Below, piece by piece: positions 19,605-61,870 of a DNA stretch of 64,000 bases. Positions within the stretch are counted from its first letter, which is position 1, and every line of letters starts with the position of its first letter. The notes beneath the pieces were generated by a model. The model was given only the letters and a program-made list of their open reading frames with translations, did no database searches and was not told where the DNA came from. A program made the translations under genes and the position numbers. This DNA comes from Octopus vulgaris (lineage: Eukaryota), in contig OX597835.1 in assembly GCA_951406725.2 (NCBI GenBank), forward strand, positions 29,078,001-29,142,000, in the 5' to 3' direction.

Positions 19605-22600
19605 TTACAGATTTATGCTTAAAATAGTGTCGTCTTTCATACTGACCATTTTTGCCACTTTTACCCAATTTTTATTAAAACATTCGTTCGACAAAGCCTT
19701 CCTCTCTATTCTCATCCTCCTTTTCAAGTGGTACTTGAAAAAGTTGACGAGAGACTGACCAGAAAGGAAGGTGTTTGTTTGCAGTCCTTTCAAACGCGTC
19801 CACCACACACATTCTTTCGCCATAGCCATCAGCGTAACGAAAACCGTTTTCCCTTCCCGTTTAAAGGAAGGTGGTGGAACAATATTTACGATAAACTCGG
19901 CCGATAGGCGAGCCCGACCTACACGTGACAACAGCTGTTCGACGAAGGACCACAGCTCTGAAATATCTGGACACTGCACGAGTGCATGCAGAACGGTTTC
20001 GTCGCTCTGACCGCATCTCGGGCAGGTCGGTCCGGTGATGGTTTTCGAACCGTGTCTGTAGCTCTTCTCTCGAACAGGTAGTGCGTCTCGATAGCACTGC
20101 CAAGCCAGGGATTTCTGGAAGTTATCCATAGGCCCCGGCCCGAACGTCGTCCTGAACAGGCGGGTTAGGAATTTCTCGTCGACGCCCAGGTTTGCCCCGA
20201 GTGTGTCGTCGGACCTCCCCTCCACTAGTCCTCTATAGAACGCTTTAGTCATTTGTAAGTTGCACAAGTTTGACCCCGGTCGTTAATGAAGTTCCAGAGA
20301 TGTCGCAGTCTCAGCGCATGCCTGCGCATCATCAACCACGGCATGCCCAGTCCTCCATTCAACGGATGTTGACAGCAAATGGACTTCCTCACCATCGGAA
20401 CGCCACCCTTCCACAGGAAGCGGAAGAGTATGCGTTCCAGTTTGGTGATGGTGGCGTCGGGACAAGGTACGACGGTCAGGCGGTAATCGATGACGGATGC
20501 GATGTACGCGTTCGCCACCTCCGCCCGGCCTTTTAGAGACAGCTTTCTCTCGGCCCATGTTTGGCTGAGAGCGACCACTCTACTCGTGATCTCGTCCCAG
20601 TTCTTATCCATTTGGAGGTCCGGACTGAACCAGACTCCGAGCAATTTAACCGGTCCGTCCGTCCAGCGTCCCACTACTGAGCCGCAGTCGGACGGCATGG
20701 GCTTGCTTCTCCAGGTGCCGAGTAGCAAACCCACTGACTTTTCCGGGTTAATCTTTGCTCCCGTCACCGTTTCGTATTTTCATAGTGTCTCGCCTATCAT
20801 CTTGATGTGTTTGTCGCTCGACACTATGACGGTGACATCGTCTGCATATGCCGACACGCTCGTCTCGCAACCCAGTTCCCGTGGGATGCCCCTCAGTGTC
20901 GCCAGCTTCCGCAGTAGCGGCTCGAGAGTCAATACATACAGAAGCGCCGACAGGGGACACCCCTGACGGATCGAAGGCGTGATGTCAAACGGTTTCGACA
21001 GGTGACCCTTCACCCGAATCACCGATCTGATGCCGCTATACAAGGCAGCGATCCCACCGCGGAAGACGGGACCGAAGCCATCCGCCCTGAGGACGGCCGC
21101 CAAGTACCGATGGTCGACCCTATCGAAGGCTTTAGACTGATCCAAATTGATCAGCGCCCCACCCATGACAGGATCCTTAACTACCCTGTCCACAATGTAG
21201 CGCGTCAGATGGAGGTTGTCATGTATGATTCTGCCCGGCACGGCGCAAGTTTGCGCCCTGTCGACCAGTTTATCAATGACAAGCGCCAACCTCTCGGCTA
21301 TTACTTTGGCCAAAATTTTCAAATCTGCGTTGAGCAGAGTGATGGGCCTGAAATTATCCATAAAATTCCCCTTGTTTGGGTCTTTCTTCAGCAACGTCAC
21401 TGCACCTCGGCTTACGAAACCGGGGATTCTCCCGTTTTGTTGCCAGTTGCAGTAGACTGATGCCAAGAGGTCGCCAAACAAGTCTGGCATTTGACAATAC
21501 AGCTCGTAGGGTAAACCATCCAATCCAGGCGACTTATCCCTCGCGCAGCTCGCCATCGCATCCCGTACGTCAGCGGCTGTGATGGGACTTTCACAACACT
21601 TCGCTTCTCTTGCCGAGAGCCGCGGCAGGTCGGTCAGGTAGGCACTGAAATCCCGCGTTCCGACCCACCACTCACACCAAACAGTCGAGCAAAGTGTTGT
21701 TGAAGGGCCTCACACATCCTTTCGGGTTCGAGTAAACTGCATCCCTGTTGATCTATTAGAGACCGAATGGTTGATCTGTTGCCACGCTGCGCCTCCGCTA
21801 CCCGAGCCTCTCGCGTAGCTTCGATCCCTTCGTTCCTTAAGGCACGCATTTTAGCTCTGACGACGCAACCTTCGTGCTTGGCGTTGAGGTGTTGGTCGAG
21901 GGCCATCCTCGCAGCCAGCATGTTGGTTGCGCTGCCAGTGGTAAGTGCCTCTTCTAGTTTCTTAACCAGGTCTCCCTCTACTCTATTTCGATCTATCACT
22001 AATCCTTTGCTAAACCTAATTGATTCCGATTTTATTGCCATTTTCAGGGCGAACCACCAGTGGTTGTTAACGACGGCTTCCGTCAGCGCTCTCTTAATTA
22101 ACTCGCTAATCCGGTTCCTGTAAACCTGTCGCACTAAGAGCGACGTGTTCAGTTTCCACCTGCCTATGTGTTTTATCTAAGTCGAGCGTACACGTAACAA
22201 ATTTGCGATCTGTGTAGCTGACTATTTTAAATTGTGGACATCCTACACTATCCCTATCCGCTGTCCTGCATAGAATTCCATCTAGATAAGATCTCGACGA
22301 TCCGACGCGGTTTGTCCAAGTCCACGTTGGCACGTTCGGATGGTCGAGTTAGAACCTGTCAGACAAATGGAAACGTCTGAGTAGGTCTTTGAGGCACTTA
22401 CACCCCCTTCTATTCCTATCCATTACCACATAATCTAGATGCGTGTCCAAGGTAGCGTTCCAATCCCCTACTAACAGTAAAGGTCTAGACGTACCCAGGA
22501 AAACCTCTAGACGTCTGAAGAAATCCGCCCGACCCATTAAGGACGGTGCATAAACTGCCATCAAACGGAATGCACACCCATTTCTGCCATCCACGTCCAA

Positions 22601-22882
22601 GACAACCAGCCTACCCTCCGGGTCTAGGAATATTGCTCTTACTTTTACATTTAGACTCTTTCGAAAAAGCACCGCGGTACCTCCACCACCGATGTTCGGC
22701 AGACAGGGAGAAATATAATTGTCAAATTGATTGCCAAACATGGACGCGAGGGCCCGAGGCTTGCTGAGTCTGGTTTCACTGATAGCTACTATATCCACGT
22801 TTAGTGACTTGATGTTTAGAAGGTAACCTTGCTTCCAAGCCGACGCCAAGCCACGCGCATTCACACAACCTAATTTAAGCAT
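19605..22882 (-). pseudogene. LINE ORF2 (APE endonuclease, reverse transcriptase, C-terminal zinc motif), broken by at least 5 frameshifts
   Basis: Motifs NARGL, ISET, GDWN, SPGLDG, FRPITLLNAD, KAFDRVDH, QGCPLS, YADD and CPRC..ETVLHALVQC, spread over 6 ORF pieces. Confidence 0.92.
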
Positions 22883-22949
22883 AATTGACGTTTACGAAAA
22901 TTGTGTTTCACACATAAACATTGGAAGAGACAAGAGGCAAGAGGGAAGG

Positions 22950-44109: not shown

Positions 44110-44520
44110 CCTGTCTACCTAGCTACCCACCTATCTATCTAATTACCTACCTACCTACCTACCTACCTACCTACCTACCTACCTACCTACCTACCTACCT
44201 ACCTACCTACCTTACTACCTACCTACCTACCTACCTACCTACATGCCTGCCTACCTACCTACCTACCTACCTACCAACCAACTTACCTACCTACTTACCT
44301 ACCTACCTGCCTGCCTGCCTACCTACCTACCTACCTACCAACTTACCTACCTGCCTACCTACCTACCAACCTGCCTACCTACCTGCCTGCCTGCCTACCT
44401 ACCTACCTACCAACTTACCTACCTACCTACCAACCTGCCTACCTACCTACCTACCTACCTACCTACCTACCTACCTACCTACCTACCTACCTATCTACCT
44501 ACCTACCCACTTATCTGCCT
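44110..44520. repeat. (CCTA)n microsatellite
   Basis: Seen directly in the sequence. Confidence 0.95.
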
Positions 44521-44537
44521 ACTGTCATACATACATA

Positions 44538-45336
44538 TGCACAAATGGGAAAGAGATGCAGGAAAAGCAGTAAATGGGACAAAGGATGCATATTTGTGGG
44601 GTGCACACTGAAGATATCACCCACATCATAAGCAGTTGTCCGAAAATCTCATCGCGGTATTATCTACCGATGGGATATGAGGTTGTAGCTAGGACACTAT
44701 AATGAAATCCGTCGGAAGGAAAATACCGAGGACAAAGAAGTAAGAACCCAAAGTATGGTAGAAACCATAGCCCCTCACAATAAAAAGAAGTCCTGGTAGA
44801 ATGTCCCAGTGAAGACCTCAATAAAATGTAAGTACAACATACCTGATATAATGATTTGGGATTGAGAATAGAAACTGCGCAGCGGATGTTAATATAAAGC
44901 TGAAGATCGGTGAAAAAGAGACTACCTACACTGAACTATTGAGAAATCTATCCAGATTACAAGTGCAGATGTATACTTGTAATTGTTGTGGCACTGGGAT
45001 ATGTAGCACACTACCTAAAAAACAATCTTGAGAAATTAGGCTTCCCAAAAGCAGAAAGGAGAAAGCTAATTCGGAGATAACAGATCCAATCCATCACCGG
45101 AACTGTAAAAATCTGTAAAACTTTCCAGAAGTTTAAATATATATGAACATGTCTAGATATGCAACTATATGCATGAGAATGCATACATAAAACAAAACAT
45201 ACAAATCTGCACATATACATACATGCAAACAAAAATACCCTGTTTTGATGTTGAAATTCCAATGAAGGAGCCTTGGAACTAGGTTAGAAACCGGTTCTTT
45301 CTCTATTGGCAACAAATTTTGAAATAAAACTGAAAA
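44538..45336 (+). pseudogene. 3' end of an RLE-class (R4/Dong-like) non-LTR retrotransposon
   Basis: CGVHTEDITHIISSCPK (CCHC), NIPDIMIWD (PD motif), C-terminal GTVKICKTF. Flanked by (TACA)n. Confidence 0.8.
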
Positions 45337-45399
45337 TACATACATCGTATGGGAAGAAGTATGTCGAGACTGCTGACTCAAAGGAATACTGCTAGAGCC

Positions 45400-45760
45400 T
45401 AACAATAAAAACTGCCACCAAATTAAAACATAACTGGCTCAGCTTTGTTGTTTGGACTCACGCATGAAAATCACACTTTATAATACTTTGCGCACTTGAT
45501 GTCAATGTGGTGAGAAAAATGCATGAAAAGGCGGATAACAGCGGACCATTGAAGACAAGTTTGCAGATCCAGTATGCAAGATACCCGTTCAGCTTCATAC
45601 TCGTTATTGTTGGAACTACAAGTTCAATACCAGCCTGCCTGGATCAAATTGTAACTGAATTTGGATTGGTGAAGTAAAAACGTATCTCCTTAACTCATAA
45701 GTTACAAATGGCTACTATATCTGGAAACTTTAAAATTTGGTAAACGCTCTAAGGATACCG
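45400..45760 (+). pseudogene. Older RLE-class LINE 3' fragment
   Basis: YPFSFILVIVG...KLQMATISG.FKI resembles the C-terminus of the upstream copy. Confidence 0.5.
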
Positions 45761-45908
45761 AGGAGGACCACTTACACAGCAGACGATGACAATTTTCTTT
45801 TCATTACGAACTTGCCCCGGGAAGGTGGCCGGTCAAAAATATACTAAAAGTTAGGAGAATGAGTGAATATCTACCCACCCATCCATCCATACCACATTTA
45901 TATATATA

Positions 45909-46092
45909 GTTTTGTCAGTGAACAAGTCGCGGTTTCAAAGCGGCGAAAATATTTTGATAGAAATTAAACTTAAATGTGAAACTAACGGTTTTTGTGCGTT
46001 TTTAAATAGCTTACAAGCATCTTCCACACCGCAATTGTTTTTGTTTCAGCACACGATCTCAAATTAAGTCACTTGCTATGCAAGTACATCTC
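45909..46092 (+). mobile_element. (TA)n-flanked element with G3-C8 hammerhead variant; same family as 51320-51515
   Basis: TTTGTCA-GTGAACA-A-GTCGC..GCGGC-GAAA-ATAT-TT-TGATAGA. Confidence 0.7.
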
Positions 46093-46096
46093 GGGA

Positions 46097-46134
<38 letters not shown>

Positions 46135-46259
46135 AAATGTAATATGTGACAATTATTCGGTAGCCATGATAAAACTCCGAATAATTGTCACATTTTACAT
46201 TTACAGATAAATTCCTCTATTTACATAATACCGAGGTCTCTTTCATTCTTTTGTTGTTT

Positions 46260-46297
<38 letters not shown>

Positions 46298-46330
46298 GTC
46301 TCTCTGTCACTTTTGCTCTCTGTCTTTCTG

Positions 46331-46402
<72 letters not shown>

Positions 46403-46629
46403 CCTATCTACTTACCTATCTATCTATCCATCCATCTGACTATCTATCCAACTATCTATCTATCCAACTATCTATCTATTTCTCCTTCCTCCCCTCTCTC
46501 TCTGTCTCTCTCTCTTGATATCCTTTTTGATATGATGAGAGTGATATAGTAATTAGTATTCTTAGTGTGGTCGCATTGAACTTCCTCATCTAACGTACGG
46601 AAATTAATACATAGGCACAGCAGCACTCG

Positions 46630-46702
<73 letters not shown>

Positions 46703-47117
46703 TGTGCGCGCGCGTGTTTGTGTTCCTGTTTTATATTATAGTCTTTAACTAATTCGCTGCCACAAATCTGCGGGGAAATCCTACCTAATCAGTTATTATT
46801 TGAAACATGCAGCGTTTAATATGTTTAGTAAGTAATATTCATAGACAAATTTAAGCAAACATTCTACCGCGTCTCTCGGTTGAAGGCACCTGCTGGCAGA
46901 ATCGTTGGCGTGCCGGAAGAAATGCCTAGCGGCAATTGTACCGGATTTATATTCCGAGTTCAAATTTCGCCGACGTCGCCTACGCCTTTCATTCCTTCGG
47001 GGTCGATAAAATAAGTGCCAGTTGAGAGCTGGGATCGATGTAATCGTCTAACCCCTCTCCTTCAAATTTCAAAATTTGAGACCTTGCACCTATAGTAGAT
47101 ATATATATATATATAAT

Positions 47118-47429
47118 AAAATAGAAAATGGAACAAGAACGTAAGACATCCGGACAACTAGGTGATACAAAAGGGGACAAATAAACATCCAGACAGGCGA
47201 TACAAAAAAAAACAAAACACGGAGGGGTCATTCGAAGCCTTTTATCTTCAGTCAAGAACCGGATCATGCTCACAATTTCGGCTGATTAATCTTGAGATTG
47301 CTCTAATCTGGCCAGCGCCAAGAAAAAACTAAGCTAAGAGCATTAGATTCCTTGGAAAAAAGCATCGAATGTATACGAAAACAAGAACGGAAAAACAGAC
47401 GATGTTACACGAATATAAATACAAAATAA

Positions 47430-47524
<95 letters not shown>

Positions 47525-47933
47525 CCATAAGGCTTAATTTCCATACACGCCAGCTGAATTCAATTCGTTCCCAGTAGAAAGACGCCTGTTGTTACGTCCT
47601 GTTACTATTATTATTATTATTATTGTTTTTATTGTATTTTGTATTCATATTCGTGTAACATCTTGTGTTTTTCCGTCCTTGTTTCGTATACATTCGTTGC
47701 TTTTACCCCAGGAATCTAATGCTCTTAGCTTAGTTTTTCCTTGGGGCTGGCCAGATTGGAGCAATCTCAAGATTAATCAGCCGAAATTGTGAGGATGATC
47801 CGGTTCTTGACTGAAGATAAAAGGCTTCGAATGACCCGTCCGTGTTTTGTTTTGTATCGTCTATCTGGATGTTCTGTTGTCCCCTTTTGTATCACTTGGT
47901 TGTCCGGATGTTTTGCGTTCTTGTCCCATTTTG

Positions 47934-47940
<7 letters not shown>
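47118..47940. mobile_element. Two inverted copies of a ~320-bp element (47118-47435 minus, 47622-47940 plus) with (TA)n at the outer ends
   Basis: Direct reverse-complement match with scattered substitutions. Confidence 0.85.
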
Positions 47941-47985
<45 letters not shown>

Positions 47986-48012
47986 CGGCGTACGTACACT
48001 TTGTTCTCTTAT

Positions 48013-48090
<78 letters not shown>

Positions 48091-48111
48091 ATGTGTGTGT
48101 GTGTGTGTGAA

Positions 48112-48420
48112 GGCGCAATGGCCCAGTGGTTAGGGCAGCGGACTCGCGGTCGTCGGATCACGGTTTCGACTCCCAGACCGGGCATTGTGAGTGTTTATTG
48201 AGCTAAAACACCTAAAAGCTCCACGAGGCTCCGGCAGGAGATGGTGGCGGTCCCTGCTGTACTCTTTCGCCATAACTTTCTCTCACTCTTTCTTCTTTTG
48301 GTCTGCTCACTTAGCCAGCGGGATGGCGTCATTTGAAGGATAATACAATGCGAAGCGCATTGTGACCAGCGATGTGTAGCAAGCAACATCTGATAGCCTG
48401 GTCGGTCACGGTGATCACCC
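48112..48420 (+). mobile_element. tRNA-derived SINE family B; partial reverse copy at 52010-52158
   Basis: Head GGCGCAATGGCCCAGTGGTTAGGGCAGCGGAC and B box GGTTTCGACTCC. Confidence 0.8.
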
Positions 48421-48504
48421 TGATATATATATATATATATATATATATTGTATAAAAGGGCTTAGTAAAATAATTAATAACTAATTAATTTTACCCTCAA
48501 TTGT

Positions 48505-48550
<46 letters not shown>

Positions 48551-48660
48551 TACATGCATTAAAGACTTTTTCACTTCCCGAGCGTTATACTAATACATCT
48601 GTTTGTTGTCTACAGAATCGGTCTTCGTCTTTTGAATTTTTTTGTGAATTTTCCACCTAT

Positions 48661-50322
<1,662 letters not shown>

Positions 50323-50423
50323 ATATATATATATTAATAATAGAGTTTTTTATAAGTAAATTTTTATTTAGATTATATAGATTATTTATATCTTTAAAAT
50401 ATTGATTATATTTTAGGTTTTGA

Positions 50424-50477
50424 AACCACCTGAAGAATGTCTCATAGAAGTGCTGACACGAAACGATCGTAGTGGTT
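50424..50477 (+). ncRNA. Canonical-core type I hammerhead ribozyme with palindromic stem III, in a (TA)n-flanked ~330-bp element (50336-50663)
   Basis: AACCAC-CTGAAGA-aTGTC(13 nt)GACAc-GAAA-CGATCG-TA-GTGGTT. GUA triplet and ACGATCGT palindrome. Confidence 0.85.
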
Positions 50478-50660
50478 ATTTTAATTATATTTAATTTTAT
50501 AAATTTTTTTATGTATTGGCTTAAGTCTTTCTTTGTTTGATTTGCATAATAGTGGTTTTGTCTCTAATTAATATAATATAATATTTTACTATAAAATTGG
50601 ATTCAATCCTAAATCTGATTTTTCCCTGTAAATTTGGATTTATTCCCTAATATTTATTAT

Positions 50661-50703
<43 letters not shown>

Positions 50704-50715
50704 TGTATATATATA

Positions 50716-50819
<104 letters not shown>

Positions 50820-51254
50820 GTTTAAATATTTGTTGTGCAAGATTTTTTATGTGAAGTCGTGTGTTGAAACAGATTTCGTGTTATTTTGCTTCAGTTTTAT
50901 TTATTTTTTTACATTAATCTTAATCTTATTTCGGTCAGAGTTCTTTCGTCACACTCCTGTGACCGCATCAGTGGTCCTTTGTTTTCTTCTTTCTTATTTG
51001 TGTCTCTTCTTACTAACCGTCAGCCATTTTGTATTTCAAAATGGAAATACAAAATGGCTGACGGTTAGTAAGGAGAGACACAAAGAAAAAACAAAGGACC
51101 ACTGATGCGGCCACAGGAGTGTGACGAAAGTGCTCTGGCCGAAATAAGATTAAGATTAATGTAAAAAATAAATAACACTGAAGCAAAATAACACCAAATA
51201 TATAGTGCGTGTGTTTTTATTGGCTAAACTGGCAAAATGACCATTCCGAAATAT

Positions 51255-51260
<6 letters not shown>
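50820..51260. mobile_element. (TA)n-flanked foldback element with ~155-bp inverted arms, each carrying a hammerhead-like motif
   Basis: Arms 50878-51037 and 51044-51194. Motifs at 50933-50977 (minus) and 51096-51140 (plus). Confidence 0.7.
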
Positions 51261-51315
<55 letters not shown>

Positions 51316-51328
51316 TGCAGCACGGATT

Positions 51329-51378
51329 TTTGTCAGTGAACAGGTCGCGGATTTTAGCGACGAAAGTATTTTGACAAA
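51329..51378 (+). ncRNA. Type I hammerhead with G3-C8 covariant core
   Basis: TTTGTCA-GTGAACA-G-GTCGC(ggatttta)GCGAC-GAAA-GTAT-TT-TGACAAA. 7-bp stem I and 5-bp stem II. Confidence 0.75.
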
Positions 51379-51516
51379 TTAAACTTAAATGTTGAAGTGA
51401 ATCGAATGGCTTTTGTGTGTTTCTTAAATGGCTTATAAACACCTTCCACGCTGCAATTGTTTTCGTTTCAGCACACGATCTCAGATCGAATTACTTGCTA
51501 TGCGAGTACATCTCCG

Positions 51517-51586
<70 letters not shown>

Positions 51587-51652
51587 CATACATACATATA
51601 TATATGATTTTTTCCCTCTGTCTTCCTTTCTCTGGATCTTTCCTTCTCCTAT

Positions 51653-51687
51653 GATTCCGACGAAGAGCTCCGCTTGAAACGTTAAAC
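51653..51687 (+). ncRNA. Minimal hammerhead-like motif (U4C core, ACGT stem III)
   Basis: GATT-CCGACGA-A-GAGC(tcc)GCTT-GAAA-CG-TT-AAAC. Confidence 0.6.
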
Positions 51688-52213
51688 CCTCCTTCTTTCC
51701 TTCTTTCCTGAGCGTCTAATAATACTATATTTGTTCTACGTCCTCGCGTTGTTGTGTTTTTTTGTGCTTTCTTGTTTGGATTAACTATATATATATACAT
51801 ATACACACTCACACGCATATATTCTGTGCACTCCGTCGGTTACGACGATGTGGCTTCCAGTTGATCCGATCAACGGAACAGCCTGCTCGGGAAATTAACG
51901 TGCAAATAGCTCAGCACTCCACAGACACGTGTACCTTTTACGTAATTTTCAGGGAGATTCAGCATGACACAGAGTGTGACTAGGCTGGCCCTTCGAAATA
52001 CATGTACAACAGAAACAGGAAGAGTGAAAGTTGTGGTGAAAGAGTATAGCTGGGTTGGCCAACCCACCCCCTGCCGAAGCCTCGTGGAGCTTTATATGTT
52101 TTGGAAATCGAAACCGTGATTGCAGGTCCGCTGCCCTAACCACTGGGCAATTGCGCCTACATACATACATACATACATACATACATACATACATACATAC
52201 ATACATACATACA

Positions 52214-52245
<32 letters not shown>

Positions 52246-52471
52246 CACATACATACATATATACACACATACATACATACATTTATATATACATATATAT
52301 ATATAAGTTCAGCAAAAATTTAGATTCAAATGAATATGGTACTTAATTTAGATGCACCAGAATTCTGTATGGTGTTATCCATAAAAATCCATGGGGTGAT
52401 TATAATGAAAATAAGCAACAAGAATGACTCCGGAGTCATTCTTGTTGCTTATTTTGAGCATATATATATAT

Positions 52472-52502
<31 letters not shown>

Positions 52503-60674: not shown

Positions 60675-61870
60675 TATTAGGCCATTACGAATGAAACGTC
60701 CGATTTTGAACTAAAAGTTTATTTTATTTTTATCTTAACAAAAAGCAATGCAGTTAATCAAAGTATGCACCTAAATTATCAACACAATTTTGCCATTTTA
60801 TTGGTTGCATATTTATACCAGTAGTGAAGAATTTTGGAGAACAAGAGGTAATAAAATTACGAAAGGTTGCTTTTGCATCTTCTTCAGATTTGAAGTGTTT
60901 TCCTTGCAAAAAGTTGTCTAATGCCTGGAAAACTTGAGTCAGTTGGTGTAAGGCCTGGTGAATATGGTGGATGACAGAGCAGTTCCAAGTTCAGTTCCTG
61001 TAACCTGAGTAGCGTTATTTGTGCAACATATCGTCTTGCATGAGAATTGGCCTGTCTCTATTGATCAATCTCGGTTGTTTAATTGCAAGTTCACTCATCA
61101 TTTCATCCAATTGGTTGATGTATACATCTGCTGTAATTGACTTACCAGGTCTCATGAAGCTGTAGTAGATGACACCAGTGCTGTACCACGAAACAGACAC
61201 CTTTAGCTTTTTTTGGTGAATATTCTTTTTGGATTATGTTTTGGAATTTGGTCTCTAGACAACCACTGTGCAGAACACTTGCTAGTATTCGAAAGAATCC
61301 ACTTTTCATCATACGTAATAATTCGATGCAAAAGTGGTTCACTTTTATGCCGTGACAGCAAAGAACAGCAAATTTCAAGACGACGTGTCATTTGATGCTT
61401 GTTTAGTTCGTGTGGTGACCACTTGTTCGGCTTCTTTACCTTGCCGATATGTTTCAGATGGTCCAATGCAGTTGGAATCGAAACATCAAACCTTATTGCT
61501 AACTCACGCGTAGTTTGAGATGTATCCGCTTCCACTACAGTTTCTAGCTCATTATCCATGTTGGCCTCAAGTCTACCACGGGGCTGATTTTCAAGAGTAA
61601 AGTCACCAGACCGGAACTTCCATCGACGTACAGTACTCTCATTCGCCACATCTTTGAACACCTCATTGATGTTTCGATCTGTCTGGGATGCATTGGTTCC
61701 ACGACGGGAACTCATATTCATAAACAAAACGAATTTTTTACGAATTTGGGTTAACAAAAATTGATTTTCAAGAGAAAACTCACAATTATAATAAGACACC
61801 ATGAATTGCATTTCGAAAAGAGATGATGTAAGTCTTCAATGTTGTAAAACAAAGAATTGTCAGGATAAAA
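60675..61870 (-). pseudogene. Decayed mariner (Mos1/Hsmar-type) transposon
   Basis: ORF 61203-61811 has HTH domains, WSPHEL and IITYDEKWI. Downstream QDD and HSPDL-like motifs are frameshifted. Confidence 0.85.

What the first reader, a model, noticed from the sequence alone, without database searches (positions are those of the whole stretch)
51329..51378. G3-C8 covariant hammerhead in two independent copies
Seen: the core reads GUGAACA instead of CUGANGA, which swaps the 3-8 tertiary pair to G3-C8. It sits inside a perfect 7-bp stem I and 5-bp stem II. The second copy (45911-45961) keeps the core, its stem changes are all G-U wobbles, and its stem III is the palindrome AAUAUU. Known: positions 3 and 8 form a Watson-Crick tertiary pair, and double swaps partly rescue activity. 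Inference: this is a natural variant family that standard CUGANGA searches would miss.
Basis: partly seen in the sequence, partly recalled or inferred. Interest (0 to 1): 0.72.

Follow-up and report, generated by a model that had tools for sequence, protein, structure and literature searches.

The report
Swapped-core hammerhead in octopus Penelope retrotransposon
Two copies of a short repeat, likely the end piece of an octopus Penelope-type jumping gene, carry a hammerhead-shaped RNA motif whose two paired core letters are swapped (G3-C8 instead of C3-G8), the swapped form dominates the whole repeat family, and it would be a natural variant missed by standard searches if it cuts RNA, which is untested.

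Summary
Both copies (51329-51378, 45910-45962) form type I hammerhead folds with a G3-C8 core; 0 of 60 shuffles give two such hits. The copies are not independent origins: both head a ~190-nt repeat in (TA)n. Its last 93 nt encode residues 1-31 of an Octopus protein (27 of 31 identical) whose relatives are reverse transcriptase/GIY-YIG proteins of Neptune/Nematis type. So these are likely solo terminal repeats (pLTRs) left by 5'-truncated PLE insertions. Thousands of contigs from four sequencing runs show no listed variant (2% cut-off) at core positions 3-9a, and the palindrome AAUAUU is the family form. Cleavage is untested. It is probably weak, dimer- or protein-dependent, and a predicted G3-U17 wobble may dampen it. 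The engineered swap and natural U3-A8 are published; I found no natural G3-C8 in ten searches, but the main survey (Lunse 2017) was unreadable. This scan noted G3-C8 motifs behind PLE genes in two other genomes. Verdict: new variant of a known kind.

The parts
51317..51520 (+). Copy B of a high-copy repeat: likely a solo pseudo-LTR (3' end of a 5'-truncated Penelope-like element)
   Evidence: 81.6% identical to copy A over 190 nt; 12593, 10940, 4624 and 1300 contigs laid from 4 runs, covering 51317-51519
51329..51378 (+). Type I hammerhead-shaped motif, copy B: 7-bp stem I, 5-bp stem II, short stem III AGUAUU
   Evidence: sequence; descriptor hit, 0 of 60 shuffles reach 2 hits; fold z -3.0
51336..51343 (+). 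Core G3 U4 G5 A6 A7 C8 A9 plus extra G between positions 9 and 10.1
   Evidence: no variant listed at 2% in 4 of 4 runs; the extra nucleotide is a PLE hammerhead trait (PMC4209133)
51371..51372 (+). Predicted cleavage site after U17, 56 nt before the ATG
   Evidence: position by hammerhead numbering; cleavage not tested
51428..51520 (+). First 31 codons of the parent PLE ORF
   Evidence: 27 of 31 identical to residues 1-31 of P0008 (Octopus sinensis XP_029654200.2); homologues carry RT, CX2-5CxxC linker and C-terminal GIY-YIG-like motifs
51457..51462 (+). Second family 3' end (other copies stop here and run into (AT)n); the ~60 nt to 51520 would be the optional PLE tail
   Evidence: loose ends with AT-run consensus in X4, X3 and X13 (table 7)
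51259..51316 (.). (TA)n tract on the 5' side of copy B, likely the insertion target
51519..51605 (.). (TA)n tract on the 3' side of copy B
45910..46098 (+). Copy A of the same repeat, between short (TA)n runs
45910..45962 (+). Hammerhead-shaped motif, copy A: core GUGAACAA, palindrome AAUAUU, three G-U wobbles
46006..46098 (+). First 31 codons of the parent ORF in copy A (start codon decayed to ATA)
   Evidence: tblastn of P0008 residues 1-31, 80.6% identity

Best explanation
The motif is a type I hammerhead fold with the core 3-8 pair reversed to G3-C8, lying at the head of a high-copy ~190-nt repeat that is likely the terminal repeat (pLTR) of an octopus Neptune/Nematis-type Penelope-like retrotransposon, and it is predicted to cut weakly, as a dimer or with help from the element's protein. 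Shown: the fold, the fixed core, and the ORF start 56 nt after the predicted cut site. Inferred mechanism: in tandem PLE transcripts two pLTR hammerheads would pair through the AAUAUU palindrome and cut after U17, releasing unit RNAs that begin just before the AUG. Copies are made by target-primed reverse transcription starting inside the ORF (about codon 11 or codon 31), downstream of the hammerhead, into (TA)n. Early truncation leaves solo pLTRs like the two here, which now decay mainly at CpG. The swap probably arose once in the master lineage and was tolerated because positions 3 and 8 need only pair.
For: Fold and chance test. PLE hammerhead traits present: extra nucleotide at 9/10.1, G10.1-C11.1, palindromic helix III (PMC4209133; 54 of 56 motifs in its Fig. 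S3 have the extra base, my count). Core fixed across runs labelled as three organisms. Non-CpG variants at 1 of 42 non-loop ribozyme positions, a pair-keeping U-G, against 16 of 112 downstream positions (Fisher p=0.04). Coding signal: 7 of 9 non-CpG A-versus-B differences at codon position 3 (p=0.008, frame chosen by eye). Peptide match to P0003 (E 1.7e-8) and P0008. P0009 and P0136 carry the same ORF into RT motifs. Of 83 longer homologues, 79 have the DKG-like motif, 74 the CX2-5CxxC linker, 62 a Y/F-V/I/A-DD motif and 50 a C-terminal YxGET motif. Two 3' ends, opposite-strand joints at the 5' edge and go-back joints match PLE structure (PMC8557442). In an anole PLE, C3G/G8C partly restores cleavage and cleavage needs the protein (PMC11167929). 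The two departures from the canonical core are exactly complementary, which suggests past selection on the pair (inference).
Against: No cleavage assay. ViennaRNA pairs G3 with U17, extending stem I, a possible analogue of the inactive C3-G17 state (PMC3884650). The open-core monomers lie 1.9 and 2.8 kcal/mol above the minimum, and the double-hammerhead dimers (-27.2, -22.0) above alternative dimers (-32.3, -34.0); the model scores no tertiary contacts. In the anole PLE the hammerhead is dispensable for insertion in vitro, and no RNA-seq ends map to the cut site. Uniformity in the family may only reflect recent spread from few masters. A C3-G8 subfamily could be under-laid because the block between the stretch's edge and loop II is short. 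The link from peptide to full RT-EN protein is a chain (P0008 to P0009/P0136 to P0012 and others); no contig holding both hammerhead and full ORF was seen. Pfam RVT_1 and GIY-YIG hits are below the curated cut-offs (4 of 13 proteins with any such hit). The ~60-nt tail is longer than the usual 30-40 bp.
Confidence: 0.65

Rival explanations
1. The motif is a hammerhead-derived structure in the same pLTR but no longer catalytic. It spread as a passenger, or as a protein-binding or structural hairpin, because PLE copying does not need cleavage.
For: Hammerhead mutants do not impair insertion in vitro (PMC11167929). PLE hammerheads cleave poorly even as dimers (PMC4209133). Predicted G3-U17 pairing. 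A distant relative (L004) and a neighbouring element carry core changes expected to be harmful.
Against: All other core positions are canonical and unvaried apart from CpG decay. The two changes are exactly compensatory, and the engineered double swap keeps partial activity.
Confidence: 0.2
2. The hammerhead cuts mainly to start translation: cleavage 56 nt before the AUG would create a 5'-OH leader that allows cap-independent translation of the PLE ORF from long read-through or tandem transcripts.
For: Cut site 56 nt upstream of the ORF start. In a chrysovirus 5' UTR a type I hammerhead must be catalytically intact for cap-independent translation (PMC13725137, section 15).
Against: No test here. 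In the anole PLE the cut falls 26 nt inside the ORF, so the geometry is not general. This reading is compatible with the best explanation rather than exclusive.
Confidence: 0.1
3. The repeat is a non-LTR retrozyme: a non-coding unit that spreads through circular RNA from tandem arrays.
For: Monomer size near the retrozyme range. One go-back joint 51448 to 51326 has depth 1587.5 in X3, against 47-129 for the other 11 rows shown in table 5c, hinting at a tandem derivative. Retrozymes are proposed PLE derivatives (bioRxiv 10.64898/2026.07.22.740005).
Against: Both window copies are solo. They run about 150 nt past the cut site, contain the ORF start, and are not cut-site-to-cut-site units. The hammerhead is of the minimal PLE type.
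Confidence: 0.04
4. The hammerhead resemblance is chance within a repeat.
For: No Rfam match. Monomer fold z-scores are only -2.1 to -3.0.
Against: 0 of 60 shuffles reach the observed count. The motif sits where PLE hammerheads sit and has three PLE-specific traits.
Confidence: 0.01

Closest known systems
[quoted passage not shown]
   Same: Type I topology, extra nucleotide between 9 and 10.1, G10.1-C11.1, palindromic short helix III, U17 common (24 of 56 in Fig. S3, my count), location in the pLTR, mostly solo truncated copies.
   Different: Core pair G3-C8; Fig. S3 has 53 C3-G8, 2 U3-A8, 1 U3-G8 and 0 G3 of 56 (my count). Stem I is longer (7-8 bp against 4-5 bp in the Schistosoma families), and the extra base is G where their consensus is H.
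Natural U3-A8 core covariants (Perreault 2011, PMC3088659; Schistosoma Cercyon PLEs, PMC4209133)
   Same: A natural compensatory change at the 3-8 tertiary pair.
   Different: U3-A8 needs two transitions through a U-G intermediate; G3-C8 reverses purine and pyrimidine and needs two transversions through a mismatch (inference).
PAc Poseidon hammerhead and its engineered C3G/G8C mutant (PMC11167929)
   Same: pLTR hammerhead next to the ORF start, pLTR reaching into the first codons, two 3' ends (tail), AT-rich target; the double swap partly restores cleavage.
   Different: There the swap is engineered and the clade is Penelope/Poseidon; the AUG lies inside the ribozyme, here 56 nt after the cut site.
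Neptune/Nematis EN+ PLE clades (PMC8557442)
   Same: RT followed by a CX2-5CxxC linker and C-terminal GIY-YIG; (TA)n targets; tandem and inverted structures.
   Different: Clade not fixed by a tree here; tail about 60 nt rather than 30-40.

Membership tests
Type I hammerhead ribozyme | Three-helix junction with open helix I | tested here: met
   7-8 bp stem I, 5 bp stem II, short stem III in both copies
Type I hammerhead ribozyme | Core U4 G5 A6 A9 G12 A13 A14 A15.1 U16.1 and H17 | tested here: met
   all present in 2 of 2 copies; only G12 shows a listed variant (CpG, 0.2-3.2% of depth)
Type I hammerhead ribozyme | C3 and G8 identity (CUGANGA) | tested here: not met
   G3 and C8 in both copies and in the family
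Type I hammerhead ribozyme | Watson-Crick complementarity of positions 3 and 8 | tested here: met
   G-C; that the pair forms in the folded RNA is not tested
Type I hammerhead ribozyme | Match to an Rfam hammerhead model | tested here: not met
   0 matches at gathering score in 64 kb; no hammerhead among 105 matches at E<=10 in 44500-52500
Type I hammerhead ribozyme | Self-cleavage after position 17 | not testable with these tools
   needs an RNA assay
PLE minimal hammerhead | Extra nucleotide between 9 and 10.1; G10.1-C11.1 | tested here: met
   G51343/A45925; G51344-C51361 (features from PMC4209133)
PLE minimal hammerhead | Palindromic 15.1-16.1 segment allowing dimers | tested here: met
   AATATT in copy A and over 99% of depth at 51366; copy B keeps it with two wobbles
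PLE minimal hammerhead | Cleavage as a dimer or with protein help | not testable with these tools
   folding energies do not favour the double hammerhead but omit tertiary contacts
Penelope-like element pLTR | Terminal repeat holds the start of an RT + GIY-YIG ORF | tested here: met
   31 codons match P0008; chain to full-length RT-EN proteins; Pfam scores below cut-off
Penelope-like element pLTR | Two alternative 3' ends (tail), tandem and inverted arrangements | tested here: inconclusive
   second end at 51457-62 and joints seen in contigs only; 15 of 31 joint rows and 24 of 662 loose-end rows were shown
Penelope-like element pLTR | Full-length element flanked by two such repeats | not testable with these tools
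   no genome held; no further parent ORF in the window; locus scans gave one distant relative
Neptune/Nematis clade | CX2-5CxxC linker before a C-terminal GIY-YIG; (TA)n targeting | tested here: met
   linker pattern in 74 of 83 homologues; (TA)n flanks in 2 of 2 copies; the octopus parent's own linker was not seen
Neptune/Nematis clade | Placement in an RT phylogeny | not tested
   no reference PLE set in hand
Non-LTR retrozyme | Non-coding tandem units with canonical type I hammerhead | tested here: not met
   solo copies with an ORF start; one abundant go-back joint in 1 of 4 runs
Non-LTR retrozyme | Circular RNA expression | not testable with these tools
   no run on record as RNA

The most novel reading that the evidence does not exclude
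This is an active natural G3-C8 hammerhead fixed in a whole PLE family across several octopus species. It is one case of a wider class of PLE hammerheads whose cores stray from CUGANGA (here G3-C8; a neighbour with C at 9; a relative with A at 5 and U15.1-A16.1) because the element's own protein helps them fold and cut, releasing an RNA that starts just before the AUG. Many PLEs scored as lacking a hammerhead would then carry hidden variants.
Probability: 0.22. Interest if true: 0.62.

Novelty: new variant of a known kind. Interest (0 to 1): 0.42.

Why it matters
If it cleaves, it is natural evidence that the hammerhead 3-8 tertiary pair can be fully reversed, beyond the known U3-A8 form. It would show that descriptor and Rfam surveys undercount PLE ribozymes, which bears on reports that some PLE clades lack hammerheads (searches used cuganga; PMC8557442). 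It also offers a natural test of the open question of what PLE hammerheads are for: a family that spread widely with a core expected to be slow. The surprise is moderate, since the engineered swap is known to retain partial activity.

Tried and rejected
Rfam: no hammerhead. Own-genome search: no genome held, so no copy count; summed contig depth (about 1.1-1.3 million at the core in X4, single contigs 14-80) is not a copy number, and only loosely suggests hundreds to tens of thousands of copies. Sequencing runs: no RNA holder listed; X7 is only guessed to be RNA, so nothing is concluded on expression or ends. Metagenome pattern scan: 3 of 3 hits lack stem II and GAAA and were rejected as chance. 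Relatives' loci: 1 distant PLE in genome contigs, none in viral contigs or in two more genome scans. Protein profile hits P0004-P0007 (4 of 5) are repeat-driven and were dropped. ESM Atlas and PDB gave nothing usable. Supplement of PMC8557442 holds neither the motif nor the peptide. I rejected the idea that the hammerhead is the 3' UTR of the decayed LINE upstream of copy A: copy B lacks that flank and the repeat has its own ORF start. An alternative core register (7-nt core with G10.1 one base earlier) breaks stem II. U17 as an adaptation to G3 is not supported, since U17 is common with C3-G8 too. Literature: ten searches found no natural G3-C8 report; Lunse et al. 2017 could not be read, so such variants may be described there.

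Full report
Observation. The sequence at 51329-51378 reads TTTGTCA GTGAACAG GTCGC GGATTTTA GCGAC GAA AGTATT T TGACAAA. This is a type I hammerhead layout: 7-bp stem I, 8-nt core, 5-bp stem II closed by G10.1-C11.1, GAA, a six-base stem III segment and U17. Positions 3 and 8 are G and C. The copy at 45910-45962 has the same core, the perfect palindrome AATATT, and three stem changes that all give G-U pairs. A descriptor that accepts any Watson-Crick 3-8 pair finds only these two motifs in the window, and 0 of 60 shuffles reach two hits at any of three stringencies. Rfam reports no hammerhead at gathering score or among 105 matches at E up to 10.

The surrounding element. The similarity between the copies runs about 190 nt (81.6%), and both sit between (TA)n runs. 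They are two insertions of one family, not two origins of the swap. The window is microsatellite-rich eukaryotic DNA, and no genome is held. Twenty of 24 listed sequencing runs, under four organism labels, hold half or more of the stretch's words. Laying four runs on 51317-51519 at 80% likeness placed 12593, 10940, 4624 and 1300 contigs. No variant is listed at the 2% cut-off for 51317-51346, which covers the 5' strand of stem I and core positions 3-9a, nor for A13, A14, A15.1, U16.1 or U17. Four stem II or G12 positions vary only by CpG-type changes (0.2-4.5% of depth). Position 51366 is A in over 99% of depth, so the family palindrome is AAUAUU. A C3-G8 subfamily could be under-laid, because the window copy's loop II differs from the family's and shortens the block that must align. 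However, contigs anchored 3' of that loop have GTGAACAG in their unaligned part (34 in X3, 39 in X13), which does not depend on matching the core. Non-CpG variants fall at 1 of 42 non-loop ribozyme positions (a pair-keeping U-G) and 16 of 112 downstream positions (p=0.04; three positions private to the window copy left out). This is modest support, open to mapping bias.

What the repeat is. The 3' half holds a frame open in both copies, with 7 of 9 non-CpG differences at third codon positions. A profile of the two peptides hit P0003, an uncharacterised Octopus bimaculoides protein, at residues 1-24 (E 1.7e-8; the other 4 of 5 hits were repeat artefacts). P0008 (Octopus sinensis) matches all 31 residues (27 identical). 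P0009 and P0136 (Octopus vulgaris) extend the same ORF into reverse-transcriptase motifs. Searching with P0009 gave 83 longer homologues: 79 have a DKG-like motif, 74 a CX2-5CxxC linker, 62 the RT catalytic pattern and 50 a C-terminal YxGET motif. Pfam finds RVT_1 or GIY-YIG only below cut-off, in 4 of 13 proteins scanned counting P0011, P0014 and P0074 for RT and P0014 for GIY-YIG as the hits (3 distinct proteins). A C-terminal endonuclease with that linker marks the Neptune and Nematis clades, and the linker has been hypothesised to mediate microsatellite bias (PMC8557442, passages). In the anole PLE the pLTR likewise reaches into the ORF, reverse transcription starts at two internal sites, and AT-rich DNA is cut (PMC11167929, main-text section read whole). 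Here other family members stop at 51457-62 and run into (AT)n, while the window copies end at codon 31; opposite-strand and go-back joints also appear (partial tables). I infer that the two copies are solo pLTRs from 5'-truncated insertions of an octopus PLE. No contig with both hammerhead and full ORF was seen, and the window holds no more of the ORF.

How it probably works. PLE hammerheads have an extra base at 9/10.1, G10.1-C11.1 and a palindromic helix III, are thought to act as dimers, and cleave poorly in vitro (PMC4209133, results and discussion plus supplement parts 1-2 of 3). All three traits are here. Single C3G or G8C changes abolish cleavage and the double change partly restores it, also in the anole PLE, where cleavage needs the protein. 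The most likely reading is a weak, dimer- or protein-assisted ribozyme that trims tandem transcripts after U17, 56 nt before the AUG. Against this: nothing was assayed. ViennaRNA pairs G3 with U17, resembling the inactive C3-G17 state; one paper notes G3-C8 works better with G17 than C17 (PMC3884650, passage, data not shown there). The double-hammerhead dimer scores above alternative dimers. The anole hammerhead is dispensable for insertion in vitro. A dead relic is therefore a real rival (0.2). A translation role, as in a chrysovirus UTR (PMC13725137, section 15), and a retrozyme reading (PMC7229834 passages; bioRxiv 10.64898/2026.07.22.740005 parts 1-2 of 5) are weaker.

Comparison and novelty. 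Natural U3-A8 covariants are published (PMC3088659 passages; PMC4209133). In Fig. S3 of the latter I count 53 C3-G8, 2 U3-A8, 1 U3-G8 and no G3 among 56 motifs. Ten library searches found no natural G3-C8. The library lacks most subscription papers, and Lunse et al. 2017, the large survey of short-stem-III hammerheads, was seen only as a citation in PMC6765202. The octopus repeat annotation PMC13282606 (passages; supplement not read) lists recently active Penelope families and did not come up for 'hammerhead' (0 occurrences). Unchecked notes of this scan describe G3-C8 motifs behind PLE reverse transcriptases in two other genomes; I did not test them. The motif works like a PLE hammerhead by anatomy, fails the C3/G8 identity test, and is unproven as a catalyst: a new variant of a known kind, interest 0.42.

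Noticed in passing
window 50873-51199 (arms; motifs at 51102-51140 + and 50971-50933 -): An inverted duplication (88.7% over 336 nt) directly 5' of copy B carries a second hammerhead-like motif in each arm: core CUGAUGCG (C3-G8 but C at position 9), 6-bp stem II, near-palindromic stem III. It looks like an inverted, truncated pLTR pair of another PLE family.
   Followed up: partly
L004:2536-2576: A distant PLE relative (34% identity, in a MAG contig, probably eukaryotic carry-over) has a hammerhead-like motif about 230 nt after its stop codon with core CUAAGGAG (A at position 5), U15.1-A16.1 and a palindromic UGAUCA segment; single copy, may be decayed.
   Followed up: partly
window 44590-45140 and about 45500-45750 (+): Two decayed C-terminal fragments that resemble restriction-like-endonuclease LINEs of the R4/Dong type (resemblance recalled, from translations) lie upstream of copy A.
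   Followed up: no
family joint 51448 to 51326 in run X3: A go-back joint with four bases between has depth 1587.5, far above the other joints shown, suggesting a tandem ~125-nt derivative that would place hammerheads in cis for dimer formation.
   Followed up: no
protein P0008 (XP_029654200.2): The annotated Octopus sinensis model joins the PLE N-terminus to a methyltransferase domain (Pfam PrmA/Methyltransf): a chimeric gene model or a real exonisation.
   Followed up: no
window 19605-22891 (-) and 61203-61835 (-): A broken endonuclease/RT LINE (L1/Tx1-like by recall) and a mariner-like transposase fragment appear in the ORF list.
   Followed up: no
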